Source: a virus (lineage: Duplodnaviria > Heunggongvirae > Uroviricota > Caudoviricetes). From it: a stretch of 15,693 nt of DNA. The stretch lies in IMG/VR virus record IMGVR_UViG_2778261355_000012. The stretch is one strand, 5' to 3'. Positions within the stretch are counted from its first letter, which is position 1. The number at the start of each line of letters is the position of its first letter. The notes beneath the pieces are model-generated. The model was not told the origin of the DNA. It worked only from the letters and a program-made list of their open reading frames with translations, and searched no databases. A program made the position numbers and the translations under genes. This document shows, in pieces, positions 538 to 15,693 of this stretch.

Positions 538-1143
538 AATTCACATAACTCACTGATTTTTGTCAGTTAAAAACAAATTCACACGTAGCAATTTATCAAA
601 AGTGATACACCGAATGATATACGGATCGATACACAGCGCCACAATCTCAAAAAAGCACCAGCACAATTAGAAGGCCGCGAGTATACAACATCAGAAACAG
701 GAGAGGGCAAAGCACGTAATAATTTTCGTTTTTCACAAACGCAAAAATTTGGCGAGGCTGGCGGTCCCGGCAACATGAAGCTACAGAGATTTTGATCCCC
801 TGCATGGTGATGATGCCCATACAAGGCTATTTCATTTCAACGGAACCGGTATGACGAACATGATCGCACCTTCTCCCGAAAACGGTGCGACCTCCATAGA
901 GGAAATGCCTATTCAGATCCCCGGTGATTTTCACCATTCAGAATCTGGCGGGTGAGTTTCTCAATTTCCGCAGTTGGTGGAAATTAAACGAATACAGCGA
1001 GTTAGAACAAGGTGACTAATGGTCACTCTGTTGCTGCGTCACCATATTGATGATCCAGCCCTGTAGTCGCGCCACTTTTCCACCAATGGTGGAAAAGCCC
1101 ACAGCAGGCCGTCCAGCCTCCCCCAATGGGGGATTGTGGAAGA

Positions 1144-1468
1144 ATCAACGGGTTAGGCCTTACCAGCAAAAAAGCACATCAACTGTAACGGAAATCGTTA
1201 TGGTTGCTGGTGGGCTAAATCATCGTTATGGTGATGCAGCCATGTAGACGTTCCGGTCTCCTCAAATCGAGGTTTCCGAAAATATCAGTGAGTTAGCGAT
1301 TAAGCTGGCGAGTAATTAAACTGTGAAAATTTCGTAGTTTGTGACTATCTGAAAGATAGTCGGTTGATCCGGCCTCAGCCGTTGGCTGTTCCCGAAAATA
1401 TCAACGGGTTAGGCTGGTTTCCCCGATGTTCGCCGCTGGCGAATTTCGAAAATATCAACCAGTTACCG
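1144..1468. repeat. direct-repeat array: three full and one partial copy of a ~22-bp motif (consensus about CGAAAATATCAACGGGTTAGGC) at the junction between hpt and the island
   Basis: Read directly: atcaacgggttaggc (~1144-1158), ccgaaaatatcagtgagttagcg (~1276-1298), ccgaaaatatcaacgggttaggc (~1392-1414), tcgaaaatatcaaccagttaccg (~1446-1468). An 8-bp-stem palindrome GACTATCT-gaa-AGATAGTC sits between copies at ~1343-1361. Function (integrase arm sites vs packaging/TerS site) is inferred only. Confidence 0.7.
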
Positions 1469-1753
1469 CCGCAACCGCTCCGGCTTCTTCCAGTGGTAAG
1501 TTATTTTTTCCTTCTCCCGATACATCTCCACGCGGCGACGGTATGCCAGCATTTCCAGAACGCGGATCCGTATGTTGCGCATATCCACATCATTAAGCTG
1601 GATACCATTACGGCGCATCACTTCCGCTACAACACGCACATAATTTTCGGCGGTCACGCTGTCCGGCTGCGTGGCCTGTTCGTCATGCTGCTGGCTGATT
1701 CCGGTAACGCGGCGGATTATTTTTAGTAGTTCGGTTTCGCTCATTCTCGTCAT
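1463..1753 (-). CDS. hypothetical protein (96 aa), last gene of the packaging operon
   Basis: ORF overlaps the TerL stop by 4 nt (coupled translation); no motif recognised; its 3' end runs into the repeat array. Confidence 0.45.
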   Translation of the reverse strand: MTRMSETELLKIIRRVTGISQQHDEQATQPDSVTAENYVRVVAEVMRRNGIQLNDVDMRNIRIRVLEMLAYRRRVEMYREKEKITYHWKKPERLRR

Positions 1754-3420
1754 ACCCCATCAAACGCCGCAAGCCGCTCTTTGTGGCTGTCGCTCATATC
1801 AAATGCAAATTCCTCATGCTCTGCCTGGAATGTGCCAAACGCCATCAGCGCCGCAACGCTCGGGTCTATCTTGTTGGATGATTTTTTCTTGTTCGGCTTG
1901 ATATTGGCGTTCGCGTCACTCTGCATCACAACATTACTCATTGACCAGGCCAGCACCGGATCGCCACGATGCACAATCACCTTCCGGTTAACAAAAACTT
2001 CGAACGATTTCGCCGCCGGACTGAAACGAAGGTATGTTTGCGGGAACGGCTCCACCTCAAATCCTGCCCCCTGTAGCTGCGTCCTCAGGTGCGTGGCGTT
2101 CCATGTATCGAAGCCCACCAGCCTGATATTGAAATTCTCTGCATCCGCCATGATGTCATCACGGATACGGTCATAATCAATGCAGTCACCCGGTGTTGTG
2201 CGTATCCAGCCCGCCTTTACCCACTGGCGATAGATGGCGCGGTTTTTATTGGCGGGGTTCTGTAGCTGAAATTCCGGCAGATAGTGACGGGAAACCAGCA
2301 TAATCTTTTTACCGACCGGAAAGGCATAGCACACGCTGGAAATATCGCTGGTTGATGATAAGTCCAGCCCCGCGTAGCACTCCTGACCGTATAAATCCGC
2401 CTCCGCGAACGTTCCGGCGCACTCCGCCCATGCACCGTTACCCATCCACGGTGTAGCCCCCTGACACCAGATATTGAATCGCTTGGTGAGCATTTCCACC
2501 CACTGCGACGGAATACCCCGCGCTTTCTGGATGGTTGAGGCCAGTTTTTCACGATCGACGGAAACATCGATATTGGGATTCGCCTTTATCCACATCGCCG
2601 GCTCGTCAACCTCGCTTTCATCATCCAGCTCGTAAATCAGCACGAACATGGATTCGTTCACCTCTTCACCATCCAGTATCTGGCAGCAATAGTCATAGTG
2701 TTGTTTACAGGCTGAAACAACGTTGCTCCCCGATGTGGTGATGGCAAATAACAGCCCCTCCGGACGCGCCCCCATTCCCAGTTCAAGCGCGGAATAAACC
2801 CCGTTGTCAGGGTGCAGGTGATATTCATCCACAATGGCAAGACTCGGGTTTGTACCTTCAATGGTTGCCGCTTTTGCTGCCAGTGGCTTTAACAGGCTGT
2901 TGGTTTTCGGGTGTATCACCTTGTGTGTCTGAATATTTACCCGCTTTCGTAACGGTCGGGATAAAAGGCACATCTGACGCGCATCATCAAACACGATCCG
3001 CGCCTGATCACGACTCACGGCGGCGGTGTAAATATCCTGCTGCCCGTTTTCCATAACCAGAAACCAGTTAGCCAGGATAGCGGCGACCGTGGATTTGGCA
3101 TTTTTTCGCGGCACTTCAATGAATGCGCTGGTGTATTTGCGCCGTCCGGTGGCCTTAACCTTAAAGCCCAGGATGCACGCAAAGGCGAACTGCTGCCACG
3201 GCTCCAGCTCAATGGGGCTACCGCGCATTGCGCCTTTTACGTGCGGACACACCCTGGAAAAGGCAATAAACCGCTCCACGACCTCCGGATCGAACGTGTA
3301 AAGGGGGTTTTCAAGGTCAGAAAAATACCGTTTAACGGCCTGTTTCAGTCGTTTACAGGCCGTAATTTTGCCGTTTTTTACGCCTTCTGCGTACTCATGC
3401 CAGGCGGTCAAGCTCGTCAT
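1750..3420 (-). CDS. terminase large subunit (TerL)
   Basis: 556-aa product with the overall organisation of phage large terminases (N-terminal ATPase, C-terminal nuclease) by recollection; sits after TerS and HNH; overlaps TerS 3' end. Confidence 0.9.
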   Translation of the reverse strand: MTSLTAWHEYAEGVKNGKITACKRLKQAVKRYFSDLENPLYTFDPEVVERFIAFSRVCPHVKGAMRGSPIELEPWQQFAFACILGFKVKATGRRKYTSAFIEVPRKNAKSTVAAILANWFLVMENGQQDIYTAAVSRDQARIVFDDARQMCLLSRPLRKRVNIQTHKVIHPKTNSLLKPLAAKAATIEGTNPSLAIVDEYHLHPDNGVYSALELGMGARPEGLLFAITTSGSNVVSACKQHYDYCCQILDGEEVNESMFVLIYELDDESEVDEPAMWIKANPNIDVSVDREKLASTIQKARGIPSQWVEMLTKRFNIWCQGATPWMGNGAWAECAGTFAEADLYGQECYAGLDLSSTSDISSVCYAFPVGKKIMLVSRHYLPEFQLQNPANKNRAIYRQWVKAGWIRTTPGDCIDYDRIRDDIMADAENFNIRLVGFDTWNATHLRTQLQGAGFEVEPFPQTYLRFSPAAKSFEVFVNRKVIVHRGDPVLAWSMSNVVMQSDANANIKPNKKKSSNKIDPSVAALMAFGTFQAEHEEFAFDMSDSHKERLAAFDGV

Positions 3421-3751
3421 CTTCCTCTGTTTCCGGTGGATTTCTGCGGCGGCTTACCGGGTCAAAACCCAGCAAAGAAGCCATTTTGATCATTATTCTT
3501 TCAGCGTCAGCCTTTGCGCTCAGGGCGGGGTTTCTGCTCTCGCTGCCCTGACTGTTAACAATGCTGAACCCGCGCGTGGCAAGGTCTTCGACGGCTTTGC
3601 GGTATATGGAGTAGTTAACGCAATACAGCTCCAGATTGCTCCAGTCGGCGGGGGTAAGGTCTTCCCGTCCGGAAAGCTGGCGCGATTTTTCCTTCCACTG
3701 CCTGACCGCGATTTCATCCAGGTAAGCGGGGGCTTTTGGTGGTCTTGCCAT
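3395..3751 (-). CDS. terminase small subunit (P27-family-like TerS)
   Basis: Track ORF 3395..3892 trimmed to internal ATG at 3751 (MARPPKAPAYLDEIAVRQWKEK...), an N-terminus typical of P27-type small terminases; placed immediately upstream of TerL. Confidence 0.7.
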   Translation of the reverse strand: MARPPKAPAYLDEIAVRQWKEKSRQLSGREDLTPADWSNLELYCVNYSIYRKAVEDLATRGFSIVNSQGSESRNPALSAKADAERIMIKMASLLGFDPVSRRRNPPETEEDDELDRLA

Positions 3752-4039
3752 GTTCTTTTTTCGCCCAATTATTTTCAAAAAAATTCCCGTGCACAAAAAT
3801 TTGAGGAGGCGGTCGGTGTCCGGCAGGGACGGTTTCGTCCTGAAAACCACCCCCACCCCCTCTGACGGCCTCACCAGCGATTGCGACAACATTCCATGAT
3901 CTCGCGGTCACGGTCGGTTAATTGCTTCGCTGTGGTGCGTTCTGTGCGCCCTGTCCTGTTGGCTTTGTGCCCTGTCTCCTGTGTCTTCCATAAGTCACGC
4001 TGCCTTATCAGTCCACGTATCAGCCTGGTTTGCTCCTGT
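3752..4039. other. non-coding gap between HNH and TerS with a palindrome GGACGgtttCGTCC (~3827-3840) and a C/G-rich tract ccacccccaccccctc (~3847-3862); candidate cos/packaging site
   Basis: No credible ORF fills the gap (track ORFs here are antisense shadows). Position between HNH and TerS parallels cos placement in HK97-like phages. Inference only. Confidence 0.35.
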
Positions 4040-4480
4040 TCAGTCATCATCGCCATACATCCAGTCGTTACGGTGTGCTGCCCGTTCTTCCTGCTCGCGA
4101 TACATGCCCGCCTTACGGTTCGCTTTCGTGGCGGGATCTTCCCGTGTCGTCTTACGGTTGTGGCACGTCTGGCACAATGCCTGGTGGTTCCACTCAGGCC
4201 AGAAGAGAACATCACCGCCGCCATTGATGGGGATGATGTGATCCACCACAAGAGCTGGCGTATAAATCCCCTTAGCCAGACAACGCACGCATAACGGGTT
4301 TTTGCTCAGGTACAGGGCGCGGTATTTGTCCCACTGTCGGGAATACCCGCGCGCGCGGCGGTGTCCCCGTCTGGCATCCTCTGCACGCCATACAGCCCGT
4401 CTGTGCTCTTCACACTTGCCGGACTTCACGCGCTTATTACAGCCCGGCTCAGTGCATCGCCTTAATGGTTGCCACGGCAT
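4040..4480 (-). CDS. HNH endonuclease (packaging-associated)
   Basis: 146 aa with paired Cys motifs (CTEPGCNKR...C...C...CHNRK) and the His/Asn core (VVDHIIPINGGG...WNHQALCQTCHN) typical of HNH; start overlaps the connector stop (TGATG). Confidence 0.85.
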   Translation of the reverse strand: MPWQPLRRCTEPGCNKRVKSGKCEEHRRAVWRAEDARRGHRRARGYSRQWDKYRALYLSKNPLCVRCLAKGIYTPALVVDHIIPINGGGDVLFWPEWNHQALCQTCHNRKTTREDPATKANRKAGMYREQEERAAHRNDWMYGDDD

Positions 4481-4782
4481 CAGTACACCCCCACATCACG
4501 ATAAACCGACCAGAGCGCAGAAATAGCCATAGGCAGTTCAGACTGCTCCACTGGTGAAACTGCTTCCCTGTTCTCGTACAGGAAAGCGATGTACATCAGG
4601 CAACCAACACGCATTGCCGGGGTAAATTCCAGCCCGTCTTCAAAACGTTTCCCGATATGCTTCTGGCAGGCTTCCAGCGCCGCATCGGTATACATTTTCA
4701 GAAGTTCGCCTTCACCGGATAAATCATCATCAAGTCGAAGATGTGCCCTGACTTCATCAGGTGTAATTCTGGCTTCACTCAT
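4480..4782 (-). CDS. head-tail connector / gp6-like DNA-packaging protein
   Basis: Track ORF trimmed to ATG at 4782 preceded by GGGAG RBS; ~100 aa, MSEARITPDEVRAHLRLDDD... resembles gp6-type head-tail connector N-termini; overlaps portal 3' end. Confidence 0.6.
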   Translation of the reverse strand: MSEARITPDEVRAHLRLDDDLSGEGELLKMYTDAALEACQKHIGKRFEDGLEFTPAMRVGCLMYIAFLYENREAVSPVEQSELPMAISALWSVYRDVGVY

Positions 4783-5989
4783 CTTTTCTCCCTTTAATTT
4801 CCACAGTCTGTTTCCATGCCTGGCTGAACTCATCACCACCTTCACGCGGCGGCATACCCTCGCGTTCGCGAGCTTCGTTCGGATTCATGATCCCGCTCTT
4901 AATCCCTTTCTCATACGTGGCATAACGTTCGGTGGGTGTGGCGCGCAGTAAATCGGCTGAATCAAACTCAACCAGATAACGGGTACCAGGTACGGGAGAA
5001 GTCACCAGCAAAGCGGCCTTGATTTGCTGTTCGAAGTTCGCCAGCCACGGGCGCATTGTCATGGTCAGAAATGCGCGGCTCGCCTCACTGAAATTGCTGT
5101 AGGTGCTGTTGCTGTATTCCTGAAGAAAAATCGGCGACACGTTGAACATCCTGGCGATGTCTTCAATGGAGAAGCGACGGGAGGCCAGCCATTCCGCATC
5201 CTGGTTACTCATCCCCAGCTGCCTGTAATCCATGCCCCCTTCAAGGATTGGCGTTTTTCCGGCATTTTTCGCCCCCTTGTAGCGTTCCAGTGCGTCTAAT
5301 GCCTGTTTACCTTTCACGCCGTCCAGCCATTCACCTGACGTGATAATCCCTGCCGCCATCATGCCATCTTTCATAATGCTGGCTCCGTGACGCTGTTGAG
5401 CAAGGCCAAGCCCCAGCGCCTCACGGCAAATCGTGACGGGGGAACGCCCCAGAAAGCCATCATCCGAGGCATAGCGGAGATGCAGAACTTCTTCCTGTAA
5501 ATACGTGCGCACCGTTCCTGTACAGGGTTCGGTGATGGTATAGCGGTATTTGTGTGTGCCTGTGCGTTCCGGTACAACACACCCCGGCGCATAAGGATGA
5601 AGTGATTTTGGCTGCCCGTCCCGCCCCCACTCAATAACCGCATAGGCGTTACCGTTCAGCAGGCAGTGACGCATCATTGTGCGTTTAAACTGGTAAGGTG
5701 TCAGGCACGAATTAGGCTGCTCATTCAGCAGAATATCTACCGGGTGACTGTCCAGCCATTCCCGCGCCTCTCTGCCCTTATCATTGCGTACCAGATACAG
5801 GTAACACGGCATCGTGGCCACCGCCTCAGCGATGACAGAAACCGCGTTCATCACAGCAGGCAATGATTCAGCCGTCCCGGCAGAAACATATTCTCCGGAT
5901 CCGGTATTTGGTACACCAGACAACGCCAGAAAATCATCAATGGACAGGTTACGCAGATCGCTTTTTTTACGACTAAAAGGCCACCACAT
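4775..5989 (-). CDS. portal protein (HK97-family-like)
   Basis: Track ORF 4775..6079 trimmed to ATG at 5989 (MWWPFSRKK...), directly after the protease stop (TGA-T-ATG); ~400 aa with conserved portal stretches (FSIEDIARMFNVSPIFL, TMTMRPWLANFEQ). Confidence 0.88.
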   Translation of the reverse strand: MWWPFSRKKSDLRNLSIDDFLALSGVPNTGSGEYVSAGTAESLPAVMNAVSVIAEAVATMPCYLYLVRNDKGREAREWLDSHPVDILLNEQPNSCLTPYQFKRTMMRHCLLNGNAYAVIEWGRDGQPKSLHPYAPGCVVPERTGTHKYRYTITEPCTGTVRTYLQEEVLHLRYASDDGFLGRSPVTICREALGLGLAQQRHGASIMKDGMMAAGIITSGEWLDGVKGKQALDALERYKGAKNAGKTPILEGGMDYRQLGMSNQDAEWLASRRFSIEDIARMFNVSPIFLQEYSNSTYSNFSEASRAFLTMTMRPWLANFEQQIKAALLVTSPVPGTRYLVEFDSADLLRATPTERYATYEKGIKSGIMNPNEAREREGMPPREGGDEFSQAWKQTVEIKGRKDE

Positions 5990-5990: not shown

Positions 5991-6551
5991 TCACAACCCC
6001 GCCAGTTCAGCCCAGCGATGACGATTATTTCCTGCCGGGCGTAATTCAGGGTACTGTGCAAACAACGAACGGTGGGCAATCTCCACGCCGGATTCGGGAT
6101 AAGCAGGCATCGATGTTATCGTGATTTCACGGAGTTCTGCGGCGGTTACAGTACGCAGATACGGTTTTTGCGCGATATTCCACTCCTCGCATAATGCGCG
6201 AAAGCCAAAGCTCATTCCTGTAATATCGCCACGTTCCACCAGCGTAAGCACATCTTTTCCAAGCTGGGTATTTGGCGGTGTCAGTTCAAAACGTAGCCCG
6301 GTGTTATCCTCAGTCAGTACCAGTGAGCCGGATTTGGTACGCCCCAGCAGTCGGGTATAGTCATGCTCATACAGACAGCGCACATCATTACCCGCCGCCA
6401 GATAGTCAGCAAAAGCCCCCGGCGTGAACTGTTCGCGAAACTCGTCCCAGATAATTTCTGAAAGGCTGTTCCAGCGAACGGCATAACCCACCAGTTTTTT
6501 ATCGCTGGCGGTCAGTTCAGATGTACGGATTTCAAAATCGGTGTTTTTCAT
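5991..6551 (-). CDS. prohead protease (HK97 / S78-family-like)
   Basis: Track ORF 5991..6776 trimmed to ATG at 6551 (MKNTDFEIRT...) with GGAG RBS ~9 nt upstream; the upstream extension overlaps the capsid gene. GYAVRWNS...FTPGAF...LYEHD pattern fits prohead proteases. Confidence 0.82.
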   Translation of the reverse strand: MKNTDFEIRTSELTASDKKLVGYAVRWNSLSEIIWDEFREQFTPGAFADYLAAGNDVRCLYEHDYTRLLGRTKSGSLVLTEDNTGLRFELTPPNTQLGKDVLTLVERGDITGMSFGFRALCEEWNIAQKPYLRTVTAAELREITITSMPAYPESGVEIAHRSLFAQYPELRPAGNNRHRWAELAGL

Positions 6552-6600: not shown

Positions 6601-7746
6601 TTACTTGCCAGCCTGAATTTCCAGAATCTTGATGGCGTTCGAATCCACCACACCACCGCCCAGATATTTCTGGGTATAGATGTTAATGAATCCAGGCTCG
6701 CTGAAATCCGGACGGGTACGCGTACCGGTTTTATGGTCAACGATGAAATAACCGCGCTTAAAGTCACCGACTGCAATCACACCGTCCGGCATAAATTCCA
6801 GATATTCAACCGGAAGCCCCAGCAGAGAATCAGGATCACCAGCCTGTAAACGATCGCGCCAGATGTAATCACCAGTGGCATTTTTCAGTTTTTGTGCGGA
6901 GGCGGCTGTATTTGAGTTCATCACCCATACAGCTTTTTTGCGGTACTTATTGCGCAGCGTAAATTTCAGGTCAATCAGCATATCGGCGCTGAGACTGCCA
7001 GTCACTTTTTTCGTCTGGAGCGTACCGAAAGGACGGGTTTTGTCATTATCCGTAGCGCGCGGGAAAGTCAGGAAACCTTTGGCTTTTTTCTCGCCATCAC
7101 CGGAAACCAGATCCGTTTCTTCGGTATCAACGAAAGTGTCGCCAATTTCAGAAGATAACCAGCCCATAATATCGACTTCGGAAAAATCGATAATTTCCTG
7201 AGTGGTTTTCGGGTAAGCGTAGATCGGATACAGGCGGATACTGACTTCATTCAGTTTTGGGGTTGCCGTCTGGTTACGTGCCGCACCTTCTTCGCCGTGT
7301 CCCACGACCGCACCCCCGGCAGAAACCAGTTGCTTAAATTCATTACTGTGAATGGTTTTAACAGTACAGATTTTACGCATCACCGACTCATCAGAAAGCT
7401 GACGCATAATTTCTCTGTTCAGTTCCGGGATAACCGTATAACCACCATCAGCCGGAACACTGCCGGACAGGTTGCGGGTTTCCCCGGTCAGAATGTAAGA
7501 GCGTAGCTCATTTTTGGTGATTTTATCTTCGACGGGAACACCAGGCTGGTTACGTTCTTCATCAGCCACAGACTCGAGGCGGGAAATTTCTGTGTCGAGG
7601 GAATCGGCTTTTGCACGCAGTTCATCAAACTGTTTGCCTTCGTCATCGGTTAGACTGCGGTTTTCACTGTCGGCTTTTTCCAGCAGGGATCGCATCTGGT
7701 TTTTCAGGGCGGTTTTTTGCTGGCGGAGTTCGATTAATTTCTTCAT
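6601..7746 (-). CDS. major capsid protein (HK97-fold)
   Basis: 381 aa; coiled-coil N-terminal ~100 aa (scaffold/delta-like) followed by a core typical of HK97-family capsids by recollection; followed directly by protease. Confidence 0.88.
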   Translation of the reverse strand: MKKLIELRQQKTALKNQMRSLLEKADSENRSLTDDEGKQFDELRAKADSLDTEISRLESVADEERNQPGVPVEDKITKNELRSYILTGETRNLSGSVPADGGYTVIPELNREIMRQLSDESVMRKICTVKTIHSNEFKQLVSAGGAVVGHGEEGAARNQTATPKLNEVSIRLYPIYAYPKTTQEIIDFSEVDIMGWLSSEIGDTFVDTEETDLVSGDGEKKAKGFLTFPRATDNDKTRPFGTLQTKKVTGSLSADMLIDLKFTLRNKYRKKAVWVMNSNTAASAQKLKNATGDYIWRDRLQAGDPDSLLGLPVEYLEFMPDGVIAVGDFKRGYFIVDHKTGTRTRPDFSEPGFINIYTQKYLGGGVVDSNAIKILEIQAGK

Positions 7747-8825: not shown

Positions 8826-9251
8826 TTAAAACGGTATGTTATCCCCGTACGGGTCATCGTGCTGGCTTGTCTGTTGTTTTGCCCTGTTCAGTGCGTCAGT
8901 GGCCTGGCCCTGTTGACCTTTTTTGCCGCCCGGTCGCGCCGTTCGCGCACTGATTACGCTGTCTGCAATAACCTGCCAGCCCCGCTGCGTTTCCCCGTTC
9001 TGGCCTGTCCACTGGCTCACCTGCATGTTACCCGCCACGCTCACCAGTTCGCCTTTGTGGTGTTTTGCCAGTGCGTCGGCCTGTCTGCCAAACGCCAGGA
9101 CAGATAACCACATCGTCGCCGTTCCGTCATCTGCCTGGCTGCACGGCAGGGGAACCGCCATACTCGCCATCGCCATTTGTGTCCCTTTGCTGGTGGTCTT
9201 TAACTGCGGGTCAGCCACCAGCCGCCCGTAAGCCGCTATCTGTGCTGTCAT
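8826..9251 (-). CDS. single-stranded DNA-binding protein (SSB)
   Basis: 141 aa with OB-fold SSB pattern (GRLVADPQL...MWLSVLAFGRQA...KGELVSVAGNMQVSQWTGQNGETQRGWQV), Gly/Gln-rich linker and acidic tail ending DNIPF (canonical DDDIPF). Confidence 0.8.
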   Translation of the reverse strand: MTAQIAAYGRLVADPQLKTTSKGTQMAMASMAVPLPCSQADDGTATMWLSVLAFGRQADALAKHHKGELVSVAGNMQVSQWTGQNGETQRGWQVIADSVISARTARPGGKKGQQGQATDALNRAKQQTSQHDDPYGDNIPF

Positions 9252-9540: not shown

Positions 9541-9770
9541 TCACCTGTTCACCTTTTGAGATTTTCCCTTTTTATTCATAATGTTAAGGGGTGAACAGTT
9601 TCACAAAAACTATTCACCAACTGTTCACCACTGTTCACCCTTAAAGCTCAATAAATAATCAAAAAGGTGAACAGTGAATAGTTTGGTGAACAGTTCACAA
9701 ATAACTGTTCACCCTATAATGTACTGATATAAAAGATATTTATCACAGGGTGAACAGTGGTGAACAGTTA
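9541..9770. repeat. iteron field: at least 9 perfect copies of TGTTCACC / GGTGAACA in both orientations plus variants, with an adjacent AT-rich tract; candidate replication origin
   Basis: Read directly: perfect octamers at ~9546, 9590, 9622, 9632, 9666, 9685, 9706, 9749, 9759; AT-rich tataatgtactgatataaaagatatttatc at ~9714-9743. The octamer is the one I recall as the phage P4 alpha-binding type I iteron. Confidence 0.8.
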
Positions 9771-9780
9771 TTCCATAAGT

Positions 9781-11595
9781 TTAATTTTTGCTGTCGTCAT
9801 TTGTGACCGATGCACATGATGGCATCCAGTCTTCTGAATCCTCTGTCAGTGTCACATTTGAACGCAAACCGTGCTTCGTTTTCCGTTTTATATACTCCCT
9901 GCCATATTCCGCCATTGCCCCCGGCATATCTTTACCGAAGCGCGTCAGTGTTACAGGTTTACCGAATCCGTGTGCCCTCATATATGCCAGATAGGCGTGA
10001 TAAAGATACCTGCGCGGACTGAACGGAATAATTTCGGCATTACCCACTAACAGACCATCACACATTACCGACGACATGAGATAGCCACAGAAGTCCACCA
10101 GCGAATCGCCCTCGCGTTTTATCACCAGAGCTTCTTCTGATTTCTGCTGCTCATACAGCAGGCGTTTAGCTTCGTCCTGGTCAGAAAAACGAGTAAGCAG
10201 ATGGCGAATCACAACCGCCAGCTCTCCTTCTATTTTTTCTGCCAGCATGGGGTCGCGCTCGTTCTCCGGTACAACCTCCGAAAAATTGAATATCACCCGA
10301 CGACGTGAGATCCCCCCGCTGCGGTCACTGAATGACATGGCGTTATTGTTCACCGCCAGCACGACCGCCTGAATGCGTGTTGAGTAGGGGGCTTTATGCT
10401 TCGGGTCGATTGCCACCTTGTCACCGCCTGTAATGGCCTTAATTCCTGCGCCATCACCAGCGTAGCGGGTCATATCCGGCATGATAATCAGCGAAAAGCC
10501 AACCACTAACGCGCGTTCCCTTGCATCTTCCAGCGCCTTCATGCTTGCCGATACTGTGTTGGCCTTACCCGCCAGCATGGTGCAAATCTCCGCCATCACG
10601 CTTTTACCACTTCCCCCTGGACCTGTTACCTCAATGAATAACTGCCAGTCGTACCGGTTCGCCAGCACCATGAATAATGCAGCCAGCACGCGATCCGTCT
10701 TGCGGTCATTCTCTGCCACCGAGCGGCGTAACCACTTCCAGAAATTCGGCGCATGTGTTGCCAGCGTTTCCCCCTCTGCTGGTGGGCTGAAAGGTAATTC
10801 ACTGGCAATTAACAACCAGTCGTTTTTGTTATGCTCCCGAAAATTACCTGTTCTGGTATCAAATACCCCGTTACTGAATCCAATCAGGTTACGGGCTGTA
10901 TTCCCCATTACAGGCAAACTTAACTTCATGGTATCGACCGCCGATTTAATGGCGTTCTGCGAATAGCTGATCTCCGCATCAATGAAAATCTGCGCCATAG
11001 CACGCTGTAACTCTTTATCCTGAATCGGCTCCCATACAACGCCGTTGTAATGGTGAACAGTGTCAGAGTCGGCATGAATCGCCAGTTCACCGCCATAATG
11101 TGCCAGGAGAACTTCGCCGCGCTGGCTTGCTCCCATCTGGTTAAGCGCCAGTGGTGCGGCGCTGTCTTCTGTTTTTTTCTTAACAGGAAGCTGAATCACC
11201 AGACCATCAGAAAGATTCTGGCGCTCACGGGCCAGATATTCGCGCCAGTTCTGCACCTCCTGGCCGTGCATACCCTCAGGATAAAAATTTGCATCCTGTA
11301 CGCCTGCCGCCGCCAGCTTCTGACCAATCGCCTTTATCATTACTGGCGCAAGATATCCGGCCCTGAATATGCGCACGGATTTTCTGCCTTCCGGCACAAT
11401 TTGCAGCTTATCCAGTTCGGATAACTGCTGCTCCCCAAGCCACACAGGAGGCTCATTATCTCCGGCCATACGCGCGTCATGTTCCTGCCATTGTTTTGCG
11501 TGTGACCAGGCATCACTACCCGCAAAAATAATGACTTCTGTTTCTTTGTGTTTTATGCCGCGTAACTGCTGTTTTACGTTCGGTGCCAGTTTCAT
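9781..11595 (-). CDS. replication initiator with primase/helicase-type NTPase domain (P4 alpha-like / D5-family)
   Basis: 604 aa; Walker A GPGGSGKS mid-protein; iteron field lies immediately 3' of the gene; start overlaps the upstream 95-aa ORF (ATGA). Confidence 0.8.
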   Translation of the reverse strand: MKLAPNVKQQLRGIKHKETEVIIFAGSDAWSHAKQWQEHDARMAGDNEPPVWLGEQQLSELDKLQIVPEGRKSVRIFRAGYLAPVMIKAIGQKLAAAGVQDANFYPEGMHGQEVQNWREYLARERQNLSDGLVIQLPVKKKTEDSAAPLALNQMGASQRGEVLLAHYGGELAIHADSDTVHHYNGVVWEPIQDKELQRAMAQIFIDAEISYSQNAIKSAVDTMKLSLPVMGNTARNLIGFSNGVFDTRTGNFREHNKNDWLLIASELPFSPPAEGETLATHAPNFWKWLRRSVAENDRKTDRVLAALFMVLANRYDWQLFIEVTGPGGSGKSVMAEICTMLAGKANTVSASMKALEDARERALVVGFSLIIMPDMTRYAGDGAGIKAITGGDKVAIDPKHKAPYSTRIQAVVLAVNNNAMSFSDRSGGISRRRVIFNFSEVVPENERDPMLAEKIEGELAVVIRHLLTRFSDQDEAKRLLYEQQKSEEALVIKREGDSLVDFCGYLMSSVMCDGLLVGNAEIIPFSPRRYLYHAYLAYMRAHGFGKPVTLTRFGKDMPGAMAEYGREYIKRKTKHGLRSNVTLTEDSEDWMPSCASVTNDDSKN

Positions 11596-11879
11596 TTTTT
11601 ACCCCCTGCGACCAGCATTTCACGAATTTTGCGGATATGACTTGCTGCACGTTTCTGATTTACGGCTTTACGATGGCCCACCAGCGTGAAATCACGCCGG
11701 AACTGATAAACAGGCATCACGCAGTCATATTCGTAGCCATCACGGCGGTAAGTGATGCGCCGTTCTGCCACGTCTTTTATCGTTACCGTGCCGCCATAGT
11801 TATCCCGGAAAATATCGCCGGGGCGGATTTCAGGCCGAGCGGGGCCGCTGGCAGTAAAGCCAGAAATTTTCTGTTTCAT
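11592..11879 (-). CDS. hypothetical protein (95 aa)
   Basis: Translationally coupled to the replication gene; no motif recognised. Confidence 0.5.
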   Translation of the reverse strand: MKQKISGFTASGPARPEIRPGDIFRDNYGGTVTIKDVAERRITYRRDGYEYDCVMPVYQFRRDFTLVGHRKAVNQKRAASHIRKIREMLVAGGKK

Positions 11880-11884
11880 GGTTT

Positions 11885-12112
11885 TTATTCCGCGTTTATT
11901 TTTTTATCGTGAATTTCGATCGCTTTATTTAATTCGACGATTACCGTATCGAGTAATGAAATAAACGCACCAGCAAGATTAGATTCACGCTCATCTTCCG
12001 GCGCATCACTTAAACCATCAAGCCAGATAAGAAATATTTGCCTCAAACATTCACTGTTAGTCAGTGCGTTTTCTGCATGGCTCATTGATTTAAAATAACG
12101 GTCATCATGCAT
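11885..12112 (-). CDS. hypothetical protein (75 aa)
   Basis: ATG overlaps the stop of the upstream 67-aa ORF (ATGCATGA); acidic; no motif recognised. Confidence 0.45.
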   Translation of the reverse strand: MHDDRYFKSMSHAENALTNSECLRQIFLIWLDGLSDAPEDERESNLAGAFISLLDTVIVELNKAIEIHDKKINAE

Positions 12113-12308
12113 GGCGCACCCCCTGACGAATACGGGCGGCGAATACCATCACGCAGTCATCAGGAGATTGCTGGCGTGCTTCCTGTTCGCTGGTGGCCTC
12201 AATGGTAATCACGCGCGGTTGTGCCGTGCTCAGGGCGATAAAACGCCAGATGTATTTATTCAGGTTGTACGAGTCCCGCCCTTGCGGGTGTCTGGTATAA
12301 TTTCTCAT
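12105..12308 (-). CDS. hypothetical protein (67 aa), first gene of the replication-side operon
   Basis: Track ORF 12105..13013 trimmed to ATG at 12308 with GAGGT RBS 5 nt upstream; the long N-terminal extension is Ser/Cys-rich and antisense to plus-strand genes. Confidence 0.45.
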   Translation of the reverse strand: MRNYTRHPQGRDSYNLNKYIWRFIALSTAQPRVITIEATSEQEARQQSPDDCVMVFAARIRQGVRHA

Positions 12309-12501: not shown

Positions 12502-12681
12502 ATGGCAACTGGTGCAAAGAACGCAAAATCACAAATGACAACTGTCAGAATCCCACATGAAGTAATGGATGATATTGAGCAACTTAAAGAACCTGGCGAA
12601 AGTACCGCTGGTTTTTTAGTTACTGCCGCAAAAGGCGAGATCAAACGCCGCCAGCGTCGCAAGGCCAAAGAGCAGGAGTAA
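12502..12681 (+). CDS. small putative DNA-binding protein (59 aa, possibly ribbon-helix-helix-like)
   Basis: Track ORF 12334..12681 trimmed to ATG at 12502 with AGGAG RBS ~9 nt upstream; MATGAKNAKSQMTTVRIPHEVMDDIEQLKEPGE... then a basic tail; the RHH assignment is a weak guess. Confidence 0.5.
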   Translation: MATGAKNAKSQMTTVRIPHEVMDDIEQLKEPGESTAGFLVTAAKGEIKRRQRRKAKEQE

Positions 12682-12738
12682 CCATCACCAGCGCCGTGGT
12701 GTGAGTAACTACGGCGCATTGCTATGCAGGACAACACA

Positions 12739-12912
12739 ATGACCGATAAAGAATTGACCAAAACATTATCACCGGCACGGAAAAGACGGCGCAGAAAGAT
12801 AGAGCATGAATCAGAAAGATTCGCGCCATGTGCTTTTGCCCTTGAGCAATTCCTTAAAGAGCACAGGAAAAAGCTCTCGTTGCAAACCTTGGAACGAACC
12901 AAATCTGACTGA
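12739..12912 (+). CDS. hypothetical basic protein (57 aa; alternative start 12724)
   Basis: Follows the 59-aa gene on the same strand and is followed by a strong terminator; arginine-rich (ARKRRRRK). Confidence 0.4.
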   Translation: MTDKELTKTLSPARKRRRRKIEHESERFAPCAFALEQFLKEHRKKLSLQTLERTKSD

Positions 12913-12976
12913 TCACATTGCCCACCAGCCAGCAAATCACTATGATGTTCGGGCTTATGTTTAGTGTTTTCCCATT

Positions 12977-13008
12977 GGCGACCGCCCCCGGTCGCCTTTG
13001 TTTTATGT
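12977..13008 (+). terminator. rho-independent terminator after the plus-strand cassette
   Basis: GGCGACCG-cccc-CGGTCGCC perfect 8-bp GC stem followed by TTTGTTTT on the plus strand; prevents read-through antisense into alpA. Confidence 0.7.
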
Positions 13009-13022
13009 GTCATAACTCCCCC

Positions 13023-13307
13023 TTATGCAGCTTTCTTACCGTACGGATTATTGACTTTATCTACAGCAGGTGGGTTACGAACCCACCAAAGCACATCAGA
13101 GAGAAGCCACGCACAGCTATTGCGCCCGAAATGACAACGAGGCGGGAAACGCCCTTCATTTTCCATTTTGAAGCGAGTTGAGCGCGACAGACTGGTAATT
13201 TCCTGGCATTCCTTTTCACGGATACGGCGATCAAATTCAAAACCGTATTCTTCAAGAAGCGCCCGGCGTTGTTCTGGAGTTGGGGGAATGAATGTGGTTT
13301 TTGTCAT
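13023..13307 (-). CDS. alpA: AlpA-family transcriptional regulator (prophage CP4-57-type)
   Basis: Track ORF trimmed to ATG at 13307 with GGAGG RBS; HTH segment EITSLSRSTRFKMENEGRFPP...WLLSDVLWWV matches the AlpA pattern from memory. Confidence 0.8.
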   Translation of the reverse strand: MTKTTFIPPTPEQRRALLEEYGFEFDRRIREKECQEITSLSRSTRFKMENEGRFPPRCHFGRNSCAWLLSDVLWWVRNPPAVDKVNNPYGKKAA

Positions 13308-13422: not shown

Positions 13423-13444
13423 CTTAGGAGTATATGAGTAAGGC

Positions 13445-14374
13445 TTACTGCGATCTTTCACTCGGCCTCTTATGAGCATTACTTAAAATTGCTGCTATTT
13501 TTGTTTCTGTTTTTATTGGCAATTCACTATTAATGAACCAATCAGGTCTGGCGATCAACTCACGAGCCCAAGCAGAATAGTTAATCGTTCCATCGTTTTT
13601 TCTGCAGGTCTCATTAAAAGTATTTTGTTGCTCTTCTTTAAAACGCATAGCAACCATTAAAATTTGCTCTCGATTTCTTGCATGTCTTTCAGCAGAATGG
13701 TGCACAATTTCATTGCCATTCATCTTGTGAGGTTCTACAGATTCAAAATTATCTGTTAGCGTAAAATAATCGCCACCACAGTCAAGAAGTCGCCTTATAT
13801 CATGAGCGGTAATCCACAAGTCATTTATAGAAATATTATTCTTTAATATTTGATCGTCTTCTTCATCATAATCACTATCTTCACCAACCATTAAAAGTTG
13901 TACGGCAGGATTATCAGTTTCTGGATGACACGGGGTTAATTCAAAACCACTTAGGGAATACTCTCCAAAATTTTGTAGCTCTTCCAGCCCACTCCAAAGA
14001 CGCCACAATCCATAAGCCCTACCAATAGAGCTAAAGCATCCGTTTTCTGAGTCTTGACCGAATAAAGGCGCGTGTATAGTTTCATCTGTCTCCTCATTAT
14101 AATTGTATCTGAAAAGATGAAATCTGGAGTATTCCGTAATATTGTTCCCCATCAGTGATGTGGTCGATTTTGCATTTCTGGTATCAAACCAAGCAGTTGC
14201 AGACTCGCTATCAGTATTCATATATAAAACAGCGCGAGCATCAAATAAATTTAGGCATAAAGCTATTTTTTTAGTAACACCTAAATTCACGAGATCGCTA
14301 ATCTCGCAACCCAGCAATCTTGATGCACGTTCAATGTTGCAATACTGAAAAGGAATTTTAATGTCGTTAGCCAT
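13445..14374 (-). CDS. hypothetical protein (309 aa), AT-rich cargo gene between int and alpA
   Basis: Long clean ORF with GAGGG RBS 6 nt upstream; markedly lower GC than flanking genes (by eye); acidic central stretch EDSDYDEEDDQ; no domain recognised. Confidence 0.7.
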   Translation of the reverse strand: MANDIKIPFQYCNIERASRLLGCEISDLVNLGVTKKIALCLNLFDARAVLYMNTDSESATAWFDTRNAKSTTSLMGNNITEYSRFHLFRYNYNEETDETIHAPLFGQDSENGCFSSIGRAYGLWRLWSGLEELQNFGEYSLSGFELTPCHPETDNPAVQLLMVGEDSDYDEEDDQILKNNISINDLWITAHDIRRLLDCGGDYFTLTDNFESVEPHKMNGNEIVHHSAERHARNREQILMVAMRFKEEQQNTFNETCRKNDGTINYSAWARELIARPDWFINSELPIKTETKIAAILSNAHKRPSERSQ

Positions 14375-14472
14375 TGCGCTACCCTCAACGCCCTAAATAC
14401 TTTACGAGCCAGGCGGGTAGGGTTTCCCGCTTTTCGGTTGGCCGACCTATGCCCGTAATATCAGTTTAACCT

Positions 14473-15693
14473 CTATATCGATACAGGTAACAGCACCACA
14501 TTTTGATGATTACCCGCCAGAAGTTCTAATCGGCCATACCACTTATTCAACGCATCCATTTTCTCAGGTAAGTACAGACTACGGTTATAAATAGCCATCA
14601 CCCCCGGCAATGCATGACCAAGTAAAAGCTCTACAATATGTGGCGCAATACCCATATTATTTAAACCTGTAGAAAATGTTCTGCGCAAATCGTGAAGCGT
14701 CCATGGCTCATTATGATGAAAATCTTTGTATAGCCTACGCCCTTTAAGCGAAGCAGCCTGGCGGGAACGTTCTTCACCCAGTACAATTCCTGTTTTTCCC
14801 GTTTCCTTTTTTAGATCCTCAATCCATGGGCGAATGCCCTCTGGAATTGGACGAACTATTTTTTCACGAGTTTTGCTGTGTTCTTTAGGAACCGTCCAAA
14901 TCCATGACTGAAAATCCCATTCACTCCACCGGGATAATCTTACTTCCATTGTTCGCGCCCCAAACAGCACAAGCAACTTAAGCAGACGAAGATAATAAAA
15001 TTGCTGTTCATCGCTATAAGTACACCGCCATACATCAGCTAACTCACTATCTGACAGCACCCTATCACGCTGCCCCGATGGTTGCCCTACATCCTGGATT
15101 GTCATAAAAGCCAGGGCATCACATGAGGCATAACGGCGAACCTTGCAGAATCTTAAGGCCTGTTTACAAATCTGGAACATTCGCCCGGCAGTGATTGGCC
15201 TGGACTGGTTAATTTCATCAAAACATGCCACCCAGTGACGCGTTTCACACCGGGATAACGGATAGTGGCCAAGACGCGGATAAATATGCTTACGTAATTG
15301 CGCCCGCACCAGTTCCTCGTCACTACGTTTTTTTCTTGCGTAATGAATTAGCCAATATTCAAGGGCATCATGGACAGTTACGGGGTTAAGGTTTTCTTCT
15401 GCGCTAAGTTCTAATTCAAGTCGTGGATTCAGCCCGTCCGCATACCATTTTCGGCATAGTTCCCTCTTCTCCCTAGCCATTTTCAACGACATGTCAGGGT
15501 AACGCCCAAGAACAATGCGCTCTAACTTGCTCCCACGCCCACCAAGACGATAAGAGAAAACCCAACTAATGCATCCCATCATGGATACTTTGATGCTTAA
15601 TCCTTCACCATCCGCAATGGTAATTACTGAATCCCGCTTTACGCCGAGAAGCGATCTTAATTTTTTATCACTCAGTTTGTTTGTGCCAGCCAC
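14473..15693 (-). CDS. int: tyrosine integrase, P4-type (5' end at window edge)
   Basis: N-terminal P4-integrase-type arm-binding pattern (KLSDKKLRSLL...DGEGLSIKV...WVFSYRLGG...LGRYPDMSLKMAREKR); C-terminal catalytic signature HDLRRTF...LLGH...AIYNRSLY. First codon is GTG exactly at the edge, so it is either a GTG start or slightly truncated. Confidence 0.92.
   Translation of the reverse strand: MAGTNKLSDKKLRSLLGVKRDSVITIADGEGLSIKVSMMGCISWVFSYRLGGRGSKLERIVLGRYPDMSLKMAREKRELCRKWYADGLNPRLELELSAEENLNPVTVHDALEYWLIHYARKKRSDEELVRAQLRKHIYPRLGHYPLSRCETRHWVACFDEINQSRPITAGRMFQICKQALRFCKVRRYASCDALAFMTIQDVGQPSGQRDRVLSDSELADVWRCTYSDEQQFYYLRLLKLLVLFGARTMEVRLSRWSEWDFQSWIWTVPKEHSKTREKIVRPIPEGIRPWIEDLKKETGKTGIVLGEERSRQAASLKGRRLYKDFHHNEPWTLHDLRRTFSTGLNNMGIAPHIVELLLGHALPGVMAIYNRSLYLPEKMDALNKWYGRLELLAGNHQNVVLLPVSI

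What the first reader, a model, noticed from the sequence alone, without database searches (positions are those of the whole stretch)
1139..15693. Whole element is a capsid-encoding, tail-less phage satellite
The island carries its own major capsid, protease, portal, connector, HNH, TerS and TerL, plus int, alpA and a replication protein with ori. No tail, baseplate, tape-measure, holin or endolysin genes are present anywhere in its ~14.5 kb. This matches the capsid-forming PICI concept, in which the element builds its own heads and borrows helper-phage tails.
Basis: partly seen in the sequence, partly recalled or inferred. Interest (0 to 1): 0.7.

Follow-up and report, generated by a model that had tools for sequence, protein, structure and literature searches.

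The report
Capsid-forming phage satellite (cf-PICI) at hpt
This is a 15.3 kb phage satellite in an E. coli chromosome that makes its own small virus heads and borrows tails from a helper phage; the family has been described since 2022, and the only unusual point is that this member lacks one of the two head-to-tail joining genes of the prototype.

Summary

**What it is**
- The window is E. coli ATCC 43886 DNA, a 100% match.
- It carries a 15,349 bp island inserted at the 5' end of hpt, between the core genes hpt and gcd.
- The island is bounded by a 20 bp direct repeat.

**Gene content (all on the minus strand)**
- Integration, control and replication: int, alpA, a D5-type primase-helicase, a 10-iteron ori and an SSB.
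- Head and packaging operon: major capsid protein, protease, portal, gp6-like connector, HNH, TerS and TerL.
- The operon is collinear with the experimentally characterised prototype EcCIEDL933 and 56-93% identical to it in protein sequence.
- No tail, lysis or defence profile matched any ORF, and gcd lies directly beyond int.
- The head genes are full length and under purifying selection (dN/dS 0.06-0.17).
- They keep the capsid residues shown to be essential in the prototype.

**Corrections**
- The island starts at about 539, not 1139.
- Its int-side att copy lies about 175-195 bp beyond the window end.

**Difference from the prototype**
- The island lacks the head completion gene (PF05521), so it has 10 of SatelliteFinder's 11 core components (Type B).
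- About 143 E. coli genomes appear to share this form, and it also occurs in Erwinia and Gilliamella.

This is a new member of a known kind, of low to moderate interest.

The parts
519..538 (.). hpt-side att core copy (CTTCTACAATATGTTTCATA); it overlaps the first codons of hpt. The int-side copy is at 15868-15887, outside the window.
   Evidence: Comparison with the empty K-12 site and with L001.
539..1111 (.). Non-coding island end next to hpt. It supplies the new hpt upstream region and contains a GTGATACACC motif (602-611) that is also present twice next to int.
   Evidence: No Pfam, PHROG or PADLOC match for its ORFs. The full stretch occurs in only 6 E. coli genomes.
1112..1468 (.). Array of four units, each a short variable dyad plus a conserved 21-mer carrying an IHF consensus. 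Function unknown.
   Evidence: The same array lies in the same position in EcCIEDL933.
1463..1744 (-). Last gene of the packaging operon, a 93 aa protein of unknown function (phrog_1561). It is 86% identical to the last gene of EcCIEDL933.
1750..3411 (-). Large terminase TerL (ATPase plus nuclease domains).
   Evidence: Pfam 1.9e-51 and 2.2e-26. 93% identical to EcCIEDL933 TerL. dN/dS 0.06-0.11.
3395..3751 (-). Small terminase TerS, P27 family.
   Evidence: Pfam Terminase_4 4.8e-23. 88% identical to the prototype.
3752..3870 (.). Probable cos region. The conserved block GGGGGTGGGGGTGGTTTTCAGGAC (minus strand) lies at 3837-3860.
   Evidence: Inferred. The linear record of a cf-PICI-like relative, vB_KppS-Ant, has its ends exactly here.
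3871..4056 (-). Small 61 aa protein of unknown function (phrog_3173), conserved in EcCIEDL933.
4040..4480 (-). HNH endonuclease, the packaging partner of HK97-type terminases.
   Evidence: Pfam HNH 8.8e-10. phrog_144 7.1e-45. 84% identical to the prototype.
4480..4782 (-). gp6-like head-tail connector (Ad1 adaptor). It is the only head-tail joining gene present.
   Evidence: PF05135 4e-05. phrog_40 5.4e-29. 56% identical to the prototype, the most diverged packaging protein.
4775..5989 (-). Portal protein. Its stop overlaps the connector start, so there is no room for a head completion gene.
   Evidence: Pfam 2e-91. tblastn with EcCIEDL933 HCP finds nothing at E<=10.
5991..6551 (-). HK97-family prohead serine protease (S78).
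   Evidence: Pfam 2.1e-44. 61% identical to the prototype.
6601..7746 (-). HK97-fold major capsid protein.
   Evidence: Pfam 7.1e-61. PDB 9gyi at E=1e-184. 74% identical to EcCIEDL933 MCP, with the essential residues conserved.
8020..8268 (-). 82 aa protein of unknown function upstream of the packaging operon (phrog_1957).
8259..8789 (-). ProQ/FinO-domain protein (accessory gene). EcCIEDL933 has a PerC-family gene in this slot.
   Evidence: Pfam 4.6e-24.
8826..9251 (-). Single-stranded DNA-binding protein.
   Evidence: Pfam SSB 1.1e-15. 68% identical to the prototype.
9544..9768 (.). Replication origin: ten GGTGAACAGT iterons in both orientations within an A+T-rich stretch (window GC falls to 0.46-0.48 here).
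   Evidence: 12 matches in the whole window, 0.84 expected; 10 of them lie here. GC.
9781..11595 (-). D5-type primase-helicase (replication initiator).
   Evidence: Pfam D5_N, DUF5906 and Pox_D5.
11592..12308 (-). DUF4222 protein, a 75 aa hypothetical protein and an Icd-like protein.
12651..12968 (-). Truncated remnant of the variable gene that lies downstream of alpA in EcCIEDL933.
   Evidence: tblastn 72% identity over residues 53-158 of 247. RefSeq marks it as partial.
13023..13307 (-). AlpA-family regulator.
   Evidence: Pfam Phage_AlpA 6.4e-12.
13445..14374 (-). A+T-rich 309 aa accessory gene of unknown function (phrog_7144).
14391..14457 (-). int-alpA RNA motif (Rfam RF02996).
   Evidence: 55.2 bits against a gathering score of 35.8, E=2.6e-09.
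14473..15693 (-). Tyrosine integrase. Its start codon is the last base triplet of the window.
   Evidence: Pfam Arm-DNA-bind_3, Phage_int_M and Phage_integrase. The R, HxxR and Y motifs are visible in the sequence.

Best explanation
The element is a capsid-forming phage-inducible chromosomal island (cf-PICI) of the EcCIEDL933 lineage. It is integrated by its own tyrosine integrase into the first codons of hpt.

Inferred life cycle, by homology with EcCIEDL933:
1. A helper phage switches on alpA.
2. Int excises the 15.3 kb circle.
3. The D5-type primase-helicase and the SSB replicate it from the iteron ori.
4. The late operon builds small HK97-fold heads from the island's own capsid protein, protease and portal.
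5. The island's TerS, TerL and HNH cut a cos site, probably between the small 61 aa gene and terS, and package one unit-length genome per head.
6. The gp6-like connector caps the portal.
7. Tails and lysis come from the helper.

Unlike the prototype, this island has no head completion (gp7/Hc1-like, PF05521) gene. That layer of the neck is either taken from the helper together with the tail, or is dispensable. This makes the island a SatelliteFinder 'Type B' cfPICI, with 10 of the 11 core components.

Shown here: gene content, synteny, boundaries, intactness, purifying selection and the absence of tail and lysis genes. Inferred: induction, small capsids, cos position, helper dependence and the source of the head completion protein.
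For: **Identity and context**
- 100% match to E. coli ATCC 43886.
- Core genes lie on both sides, and the K-12 site is empty.
- The element is 15,349 bp between 20 bp att repeats. EcCIEDL933 measures 15,228 bp between its own 21 bp repeats and is given as 15.4 kb in the paper.

**Gene content**
- Profile matches for all head, packaging, replication and integration genes.
- No tail, holin, endolysin or defence matches.

**Relation to the prototype**
- Collinear with EcCIEDL933.
- Protein identities: TerL 93%, TerS 88%, HNH 84%, portal 80%, capsid 74%, protease 61%, connector 56%.
- The capsid protein matches PDB 9gyi at E=1e-184.
- The essential capsid residues are conserved.
- dN/dS is 0.06-0.17 within the lineage.

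**Not a phage fragment**
- Among 50,697 phage records, the only records spanning most of the module are small (10.7-16.5 kb: vB_KppS-Ant, Pmp8, Pmp7). Two others are unannotated fragments of 1.6 and 3.8 kb, and one is the terminal ~4 kb of a 106.5 kb Klebsiella phage record (P12620-1) that was not examined. None covers 80% of the module.

**Evidence of mobility**
- The same packaging module without a head completion gene sits at three different sites with three different integrases: hpt, thiM/rcnR and a prophage terL.

**Literature**
- hpt is a documented PICI attachment site (PMC10111431).
- The experimental basis for the family mechanism is in preprints 10.1101/2022.09.08.507074 and 10.1101/2025.02.11.637232.
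Against: - Nothing was tested experimentally for this element.
- The head completion gene is absent. It lies within the EcCIEDL933 packaging module, where individual mutation of each gene but one (hypothetical gene 1792) abolished transfer.
- The gene downstream of alpA is a truncated remnant.
- No helper prophage was looked for in ATCC 43886.
- The cos position rests on the ends of one deposited linear record. Those ends may be conventional rather than physical.
Confidence: 0.88

Rival explanations
1. The island is a cf-PICI by descent but is now defective. On this reading, loss of the head completion gene and truncation of the gene downstream of alpA have left it unable to make infectious particles, so it is a fixed chromosomal passenger.
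For: The head completion gene (PF05521) is present in EcCIEDL933 and absent here. In EcCIEDL933, individual mutation of each packaging-module gene but one abolished transfer. A pseudogene remnant lies at 12651-12968.
Against: - The form without this gene appears to be present in about 143 of 5,426 complete E. coli genomes. That count is extrapolated from the listed rows: all eight rows at 94.5% identity or more lack the gene.
- It occurs at three or more att sites with different integrases.
- All packaging genes are under purifying selection.
- The same precise gene-sized absence occurs in tail-less islands with the same packaging-module order in Erwinia psidii and Gilliamella sp..
Confidence: 0.12
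2. The region is the head-and-packaging remnant of a degraded tailed prophage whose tail and lysis genes have been deleted.
For: The structural genes are homologous to HK97-type phage genes.
Against: - Precise att repeats lie in a site that is otherwise empty.
- There are no tail or lysis fragments.
- The regulation and replication module is of the PICI type: alpA, a D5-type primase and an iteron ori.
- No examined full-length phage shares nucleotide similarity. One 106.5 kb record matched only over its terminal ~4 kb and was not inspected.
- dN/dS is well below 1.
- The size equals that of the prototype satellite.
Confidence: 0.02
3. The element is a classical PICI (EcCICFT073-like) or a P4-like satellite that remodels helper capsids instead of building its own.
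For: It shares int, alpA, a primase, ori architecture and an Icd-like gene with those families.
Against: It carries a portal, a connector, TerL, a protease and a full capsid gene. The first two are 'forbidden' components for classical PICIs in SatelliteFinder. No psu, delta, sid or rpp-like match was seen in any profile search.
Confidence: 0.01

Closest known systems
EcCIEDL933, the prototype cf-PICI of E. coli O157:H7 EDL933 (Alqurainy et al., preprint 10.1101/2022.09.08.507074)
   Same: - The gene order is the same: int, alpA, Icd-like, DUF4222, primase, ori, SSB, capsid, protease, portal, connector, HNH, small ORF, TerS, TerL, small ORF.
- Packaging proteins are 56-93% identical and of the same lengths.
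- The size is about the same (15.3 kb against 15.2-15.4 kb).
- The same four-unit repeat array follows the last gene.
   Different: - The window island has no head completion gene (PF05521) between portal and connector.
- The integrase is different (48% identity), and so is the att site (hpt instead of the roxA/phoQ region).
- The primase is D5-type instead of DUF927-type.
- A ProQ/FinO gene replaces PerC.
- There is an extra 309 aa gene between int and alpA.
- The gene downstream of alpA is truncated.
hpt-integrating PICIs and helper-embedded PICIs (Tommasini, Mageeney and Williams 2023, PMC10111431)
   Same: The integration target is hpt, and attP carries a replacement 5' end so that the gene stays intact. 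A close relative of the window's packaging module is embedded in a prophage terL gene (L004), which is the helper-embedded configuration that paper describes.
   Different: That paper classifies elements by integrase and att site and does not single out the capsid-forming type. I could not check whether this exact element is in its supplementary list.
vB_KppS-Ant (LR881103, 16.5 kb, deposited as a phage from an induced prophage)
   Same: It is the closest record in the phage collection, at 75% nucleotide identity over the head genes. It has the same int, primase and capsid-to-TerL architecture and the same small size.
   Different: It has the head completion-type gene (annotated 'gp9') between portal and connector. 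It also carries a 765 aa gene after TerL that is annotated as a tape measure protein.
HK97-type siphophage head and packaging modules (HK97, phiP27, SfII, ST64B)
   Same: They share the HK97-fold capsid, the S78 protease, the portal, the gp6-like adaptor and the HNH plus P27-family TerS plus TerL cos packaging set.
   Different: Similarity is at protein level only, at 34-39% for the connector. The phages have head completion, tail and lysis genes, and genomes of about 40 kb.

Membership tests
cf-PICI (capsid-forming PICI) | Size about 10-18 kb (criterion in 10.1101/2025.02.11.637232) | tested here: met
   15,349 bp between the att repeats.
cf-PICI (capsid-forming PICI) | Integrase, regulation module (alpA) and replication module (primase/rep plus ori) | tested here: met
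   Pfam matches for Int, AlpA and the D5-type primase-helicase. Ten iterons.
cf-PICI (capsid-forming PICI) | Own major capsid protein, prohead protease and portal | tested here: met
   Pfam 7.1e-61, 2.1e-44 and 2e-91. Full length, and dN/dS at most 0.12 against L004.
cf-PICI (capsid-forming PICI) | Own HNH, TerS and TerL | tested here: met
   84-93% identical to the EcCIEDL933 proteins.
cf-PICI (capsid-forming PICI) | Both head-tail joining genes (adaptor and connector) | tested here: not met
   Only the gp6-like PF05135 gene is present. The PF05521 head completion gene of EcCIEDL933 has no tblastn match at E<=10 and no coding space. SatelliteFinder still accepts elements with 10 or 9 of the 11 core components as Types B and C, so this is a variant, not an exclusion.
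cf-PICI (capsid-forming PICI) | No lysis genes and no tail module (forbidden components) | tested here: met
   No such match in Pfam, PHROGs or PADLOC for any ORF. The flanks are hpt/can and gcd/cueO.
cf-PICI (capsid-forming PICI) | Proteobacterial gene order: capsid, protease, portal, connectors, then hnh, terS, terL | tested here: met
cf-PICI (capsid-forming PICI) | Packaging proteins 50-90% identical to EcCIEDL933 | tested here: met
   56-93% identical.
cf-PICI (capsid-forming PICI) | Helper-phage induction through alpA, small satellite-made capsids, exclusive self-packaging, and dependence on helper tails | not testable with these tools
   Shown experimentally only for EcCIEDL933 and a few others.
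Classical Gram-negative PICI (EcCICFT073 type) | No portal and no head-tail connector or adaptor genes (forbidden components in SatelliteFinder's PICI model) | tested here: not met
   A portal and a connector are present. The rule is quoted.
P4-like satellite | The psu-delta-sid operon and the alpha primase | tested here: not met
   No such match in the Pfam or PHROG scans of all ORFs. Only an Icd-like gene and alpA are shared. Dedicated P4 profiles were not run.
Complete or degraded tailed prophage | Tail and lysis genes, or their remnants, within or next to the element | tested here: not met

The most novel reading that the evidence does not exclude
cf-PICIs that lack the head completion (gp7/Hc1-like) gene may form a functional sub-type that arises repeatedly. 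This sub-type would take from its helper not only the tail but also the head completion protein. The specificity interface between satellite and helper would then sit one layer further in, between the satellite's adaptor and the helper's Hc1.

If so, free tail-less capsids of this sub-type should not be able to pick up tails from foreign lysates unless helper Hc1 is also present. That would limit the cross-species spread reported for two-gene cf-PICIs.

Support:
- The form appears to be present in about 143 E. coli genomes (extrapolated from the listed rows).
- It sits at three or more att sites.
- It is under purifying selection.
- The same precise gene-sized absence occurs in Erwinia and Gilliamella islands.
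- The connector is the most diverged packaging protein.
- Lambdoid prophages carry Hc1 proteins 41-50% identical to the cf-PICI one.
Probability: 0.4. Interest if true: 0.45.

Novelty: new member of a known kind. Interest (0 to 1): 0.27.

Why it matters
As a cf-PICI, this island adds nothing conceptually new. The family, its mechanism, its abundance in Enterobacteriaceae (13% of genomes) and the hpt attachment site are all published.

It is useful as a clean, fully bounded example. It also represents the Type B form without a head completion gene, which has not been characterised experimentally. That form gives a direct way to ask which neck layers a satellite must encode and which it can borrow, and whether this choice limits the tail promiscuity described for cf-PICIs.

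The host is an enterotoxigenic-type human isolate, so the island is also a potential vehicle for gene transfer in a pathogen.

Tried and rejected
- **Defence genes.** PADLOC scans of the accessory ORFs (the 309 aa gene, ProQ/FinO and the small hypotheticals) gave no defence-system match.
- **Other RNAs.** The Rfam scan gave only the int-alpA motif. The microRNA-family matches at 9521-9783 are low-complexity artefacts of the A+T-rich iteron ori.
- **Promoters and terminators.** The scan gave fewer promoter-like sites than shuffled sequence and nothing decisive.
- **Connector structure.** A search of solved structures with the connector found nothing.
- **Prior cataloguing.** I looked for this exact element in the supplements of the SatelliteFinder and cf-PICI papers, but no supplementary text is held.
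- **A substitute for the head completion protein.** I considered whether one of the small unknown proteins (61, 82 or 93 aa) could replace it. I rejected this because all three also occur in EcCIEDL933 alongside its head completion gene.
- **The repeat array as cos.** I considered the four-unit repeat array as the cos site. This is less likely, because the ends of the vB_KppS-Ant record fall between the small ORF and terS.
- **The 539-1111 stretch.** No annotated feature lies under it in any of the 20 records listed (a spread of the 141 matching genomes), apart from unnamed hypothetical proteins.


Full report
**Source and context.** The 15,693-base window is identical to E. coli ATCC 43886 chromosome NZ_CP024256.1, positions 1751855-1767547. 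With 8 kb of flank on each side (L001), the gene order is can, hpt, island, gcd, cueO. In K-12 MG1655, hpt and gcd are neighbours 205 bp apart.

**Boundaries.** I compared the window, L001 and the empty K-12 site.
- A 20 bp direct repeat, CTTCTACA(A/G)TATGTTTCATA, lies at window 519-538, overlapping the first codons of hpt.
- Its second copy lies at 15868-15887, which is 175-194 bp past the end of the window.
- The native hpt upstream sequence resumes directly after that second copy.
- The island is therefore 15,349 bp, running from about 539 to about 15887.
- Integration regenerates an intact hpt with a Thr4Ile change and moves the native hpt promoter 15.3 kb away.
- hpt is a published PICI attachment site (PMC10111431).

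**Gene content.** All island genes but one are on the minus strand. Pfam matches:

| Gene | Coordinates | Match |
|---|---|---|
| TerL | 1750-3411 | nuclease 1.9e-51, ATPase 2.2e-26 |
| TerS (P27 family) | 3395-3751 | 4.8e-23 |
| HNH | 4040-4480 | 8.8e-10 |
| gp6-like connector | 4480-4782 | PF05135 4e-05; phrog_40 'adaptor Ad1' 5.4e-29 |
| Portal | 4775-5989 | 2e-91 |
| S78 prohead protease | 5991-6551 | 2.1e-44 |
| HK97-type capsid protein | 6601-7746 | 7.1e-61 |
| ProQ/FinO protein | 8259-8789 | 4.6e-24 |
| SSB | 8826-9251 | 1.1e-15 |
| D5-type primase-helicase | 9781-11595 | D5_N, DUF5906, Pox_D5 |
| DUF4222 protein | 11592-11879 | 5.6e-25 |
| AlpA | 13023-13307 | 6.4e-12 |
| Tyrosine integrase | 14473-15693 | Arm-DNA-bind_3, Phage_int_M, Phage_integrase |

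- Ten GGTGAACAGT iterons fill 9544-9768, just downstream of the primase gene. The whole window has 12 matches against 0.84 expected. This is the usual PICI arrangement of rep gene followed by ori.
- No ORF matched a tail, baseplate, tape measure, holin, endolysin or defence profile. This includes the small hypotheticals and the two spare ORFs in the 924 bp non-coding end.
- Annotated genes cover 84% of the island portion of the window. The only gap large enough to hide a gene is 539-1462.

**Comparison with the prototype.** EcCIEDL933 lies at L003 30329 to about 45510, between roxA and phoQ.
- The two islands are collinear.
- Protein identities: TerL 93%, TerS 88%, last small ORF 86%, HNH 84%, portal 80%, small ORF after HNH 75%, capsid 74%, SSB 68%, protease 61%, connector 56%, alpA 49%, Int 48%.
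- Lengths are equal or within four residues.
- This lies within (TerL slightly above) the 50-90% range the authors report for family members.
- The window capsid protein matches PDB 9gyi, a 385 aa 'Major head protein' deposited as four chains, at E=1e-184. The next matches are the Rhodobacter gene transfer agent capsids.
- The five residues whose mutation reduced or abolished EcCIEDL933 transfer (D257, K290, D295, E319, R345) are conserved, and the 227-248 'connector loop' is present (residues).

**Intactness and selection.** There are no internal stops. dN/dS against a relative in strain rl0044 (L004) is 0.06-0.17 for TerL, TerS, HNH, connector, portal, protease and capsid. Against EcCIEDL933 it is 0.11-0.36, with the connector pair not computable because dS is saturated.

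**Relation to phages.** A sensitive nucleotide search of the 6.3 kb head and packaging module against 50,697 phage records found six records, none covering 80% of the module:
- Three are small: vB_KppS-Ant (16.5 kb), Pasteurella Pmp8 (15.3 kb) and Pmp7 (10.7 kb). vB_KppS-Ant has the int, primase and capsid-to-TerL architecture of a cf-PICI.
- Two are unannotated fragments of 1.6 and 3.8 kb.
- One is a 106.5 kb Klebsiella phage record (P12620-1) that matches only over its terminal ~4 kb. I did not examine it further.

The closest connectors in ordinary tailed phages are 34-39% identical (SfII, ST64B, phiP27). This fits the published finding that cf-PICI modules are distinct from phage modules.

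**The one real difference.**
- EcCIEDL933 has a 112 aa gene between portal and connector that matches PF05521, the phage head completion protein (7.3e-23).
- The window has no such gene. The portal stop overlaps the connector start (4775-4782), and tblastn with the EcCIEDL933 protein finds nothing at E<=10.
- That gene lies within the EcCIEDL933 packaging module, where individual mutation of each gene but one (hypothetical gene 1792) abolished transfer. The adaptor and connector pair determine which tails are used.
- A stricter screening list names both genes. SatelliteFinder accepts 10 or 9 of its 11 core components as Types B and C, and notes that many such elements are functional. On that definition, this island is a Type B cfPICI.

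**Is the form without this gene a dead end?** The evidence says probably not.
- In 5,426 complete E. coli genomes, 534 carry the portal-connector region. Of these, 143 match at 90% identity or more; all eight listed examples at 94.5% or more have the contiguous portal, connector, HNH order. The roughly 390 matching at 80-90% show the head completion gene inserted in the listed examples.
- The module without the gene occurs at hpt (the window), at thiM/rcnR in ETEC-2264 and inside a prophage terL in rl0044, each with a different integrase.
- A scan of species-representative genomes with the connector protein found the same abutting portal-connector arrangement in Erwinia psidii (L007) and Gilliamella sp. 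App6-5 (L010).
- Related Gilliamella, Frischella and Pasteurellaceae islands keep the gene.
- L007 and L010 have a primase (L010 also alpA) upstream and housekeeping genes downstream, with no tail genes among the ORFs tested.
- In Gilliamella, the difference is a clean 343 bp gene-sized indel between flanks that are 86-88% identical.
- Lambdoid prophages encode head completion proteins 41-50% identical to the cf-PICI one, so supply in trans by a helper is plausible. It is untested.

**Probable cos site.** The linear record of vB_KppS-Ant begins 22 bp before terS and ends 37 bp after the small ORF that follows HNH. Its last bases fall in a block, GGGGTGGGGGNGGTTTTCAGGAC, that is conserved in the window (3837-3860), in EcCIEDL933 and in rl0044. 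cf-PICIs are reported to have cohesive ends. This places cos in the 119 bp gap at 3752-3870, the usual position for HNH, TerS and TerL systems. It remains an inference from how one record was deposited.

**Mechanism.** By homology with EcCIEDL933, the cycle is inferred to run as follows:
1. A helper activates alpA.
2. Int excises the island.
3. The primase-helicase and SSB replicate it at the iteron ori.
4. The island builds T=4 HK97-fold heads.
5. It cuts and packages its own 15.3 kb genome.
6. It completes particles with helper tails and, here, possibly with helper head completion protein.
7. It is released by helper lysis.

None of these steps was shown for this element.

**Verdict.** The element is a new member of a known kind, and the family, its detection rules and its attachment site are already published. 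Interest is low to moderate. The only open question it raises is how cf-PICIs without a head completion gene join heads to tails.

Noticed in passing
window 1112-1468: Four repeat units lie just after the last packaging gene. Each is a short dyad whose sequence differs between copies but keeps its symmetry (CCCCCAATGGGGG, CCTCAAATCGAGG, CAGCCGTTGGCTG, GCCGCTGGC), followed by a conserved GAAAATATCAACGGGTTAGGC. The only three perfect IHF consensus sites (WATCAANNNNTTR) in the whole window are in this array, against 0.78 expected. The same array sits in the same place in EcCIEDL933 although its att module differs. The RNA fold z-score of the minus strand is -4.4. Function unknown.
   Followed up: partly
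window 14391-14457 (minus strand): The Rfam int-alpA RNA motif (RF02996) scores 55.2 bits against a gathering score of 35.8. It lies in the 98 bp gap between the integrase stop and the 309 aa gene, so here it precedes an accessory gene instead of alpA itself.
   Followed up: no
window 519-640 and L001 23868-23960: Integration replaces the first codons and the whole upstream region of hpt. Hpt becomes Thr4Ile, and the native promoter region ends up 15.3 kb away next to gcd. The island-supplied upstream sequence partly mimics the native one (TTAAAAACAAAT...CAC). hpt expression in this strain must therefore depend on island DNA.
   Followed up: partly
window 8259-8789 (minus strand): The satellite encodes a ProQ/FinO-domain RNA-binding protein in the variable slot just before the packaging operon. 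EcCIEDL933 and the rl0044 relative carry a PerC-family regulator there. There was no defence-system match.
   Followed up: partly
window 13445-14374 (minus strand): A 309 aa gene lies between int and alpA in the most A+T-rich part of the window (GC 0.39). It has no Pfam or PADLOC match, only phrog_7144 of unknown function. A DUF6387 gene occupies the same slot in the ETEC-2264 relative. It looks like a swappable accessory cargo position.
   Followed up: partly
window 12651-12968 (minus strand): This is a truncated remnant (residues 53-158 of 247, 72% identity) of the variable gene of unknown function that follows alpA in EcCIEDL933. RefSeq marks it as partial. The mechanical 302 aa ORF at 12105-13013 is therefore not a real gene.
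   Followed up: partly
L004 8119-24798 (E. coli rl0044, NZ_CP121356.1): A close relative of the window's packaging module (94-99% identical proteins, and also without a head completion gene) is integrated inside the terL gene of an HK97-like prophage that has its own connector, head completion and tail genes. This is a capsid-forming example of the published helper-embedded PICI configuration.
   Followed up: partly
L006 2036-4333 (vB_KppS-Ant, LR881103.1): This 16.5 kb record, deposited as a phage, has the int, primase and capsid-to-TerL architecture of a cf-PICI. It carries a 765 aa gene after TerL that is annotated 'tail length tape measure protein'. That annotation is worth checking, because a real tail gene would be unusual for this family.
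   Followed up: no
E. coli hits H3-H6 (for example NZ_AP043633.1 145839-161053): Four genomes carry the same island at what appears to be the same site, at 98.7% identity over 86% of its length. Under the match they have a 'helicase RepA family protein' annotated where the other relatives list a 'DNA primase family protein'. This suggests whole-module exchange of the replication genes.
   Followed up: no
window 6601-7746 (minus strand): After PDB 9gyi, the best solved-structure matches to the capsid protein are the capsids of the Rhodobacter capsulatus gene transfer agent (6tb9, 6tba; E about 1e-47). No HK97 or other tailed-phage capsid reached the E<=1e-5 cut-off.
   Followed up: no
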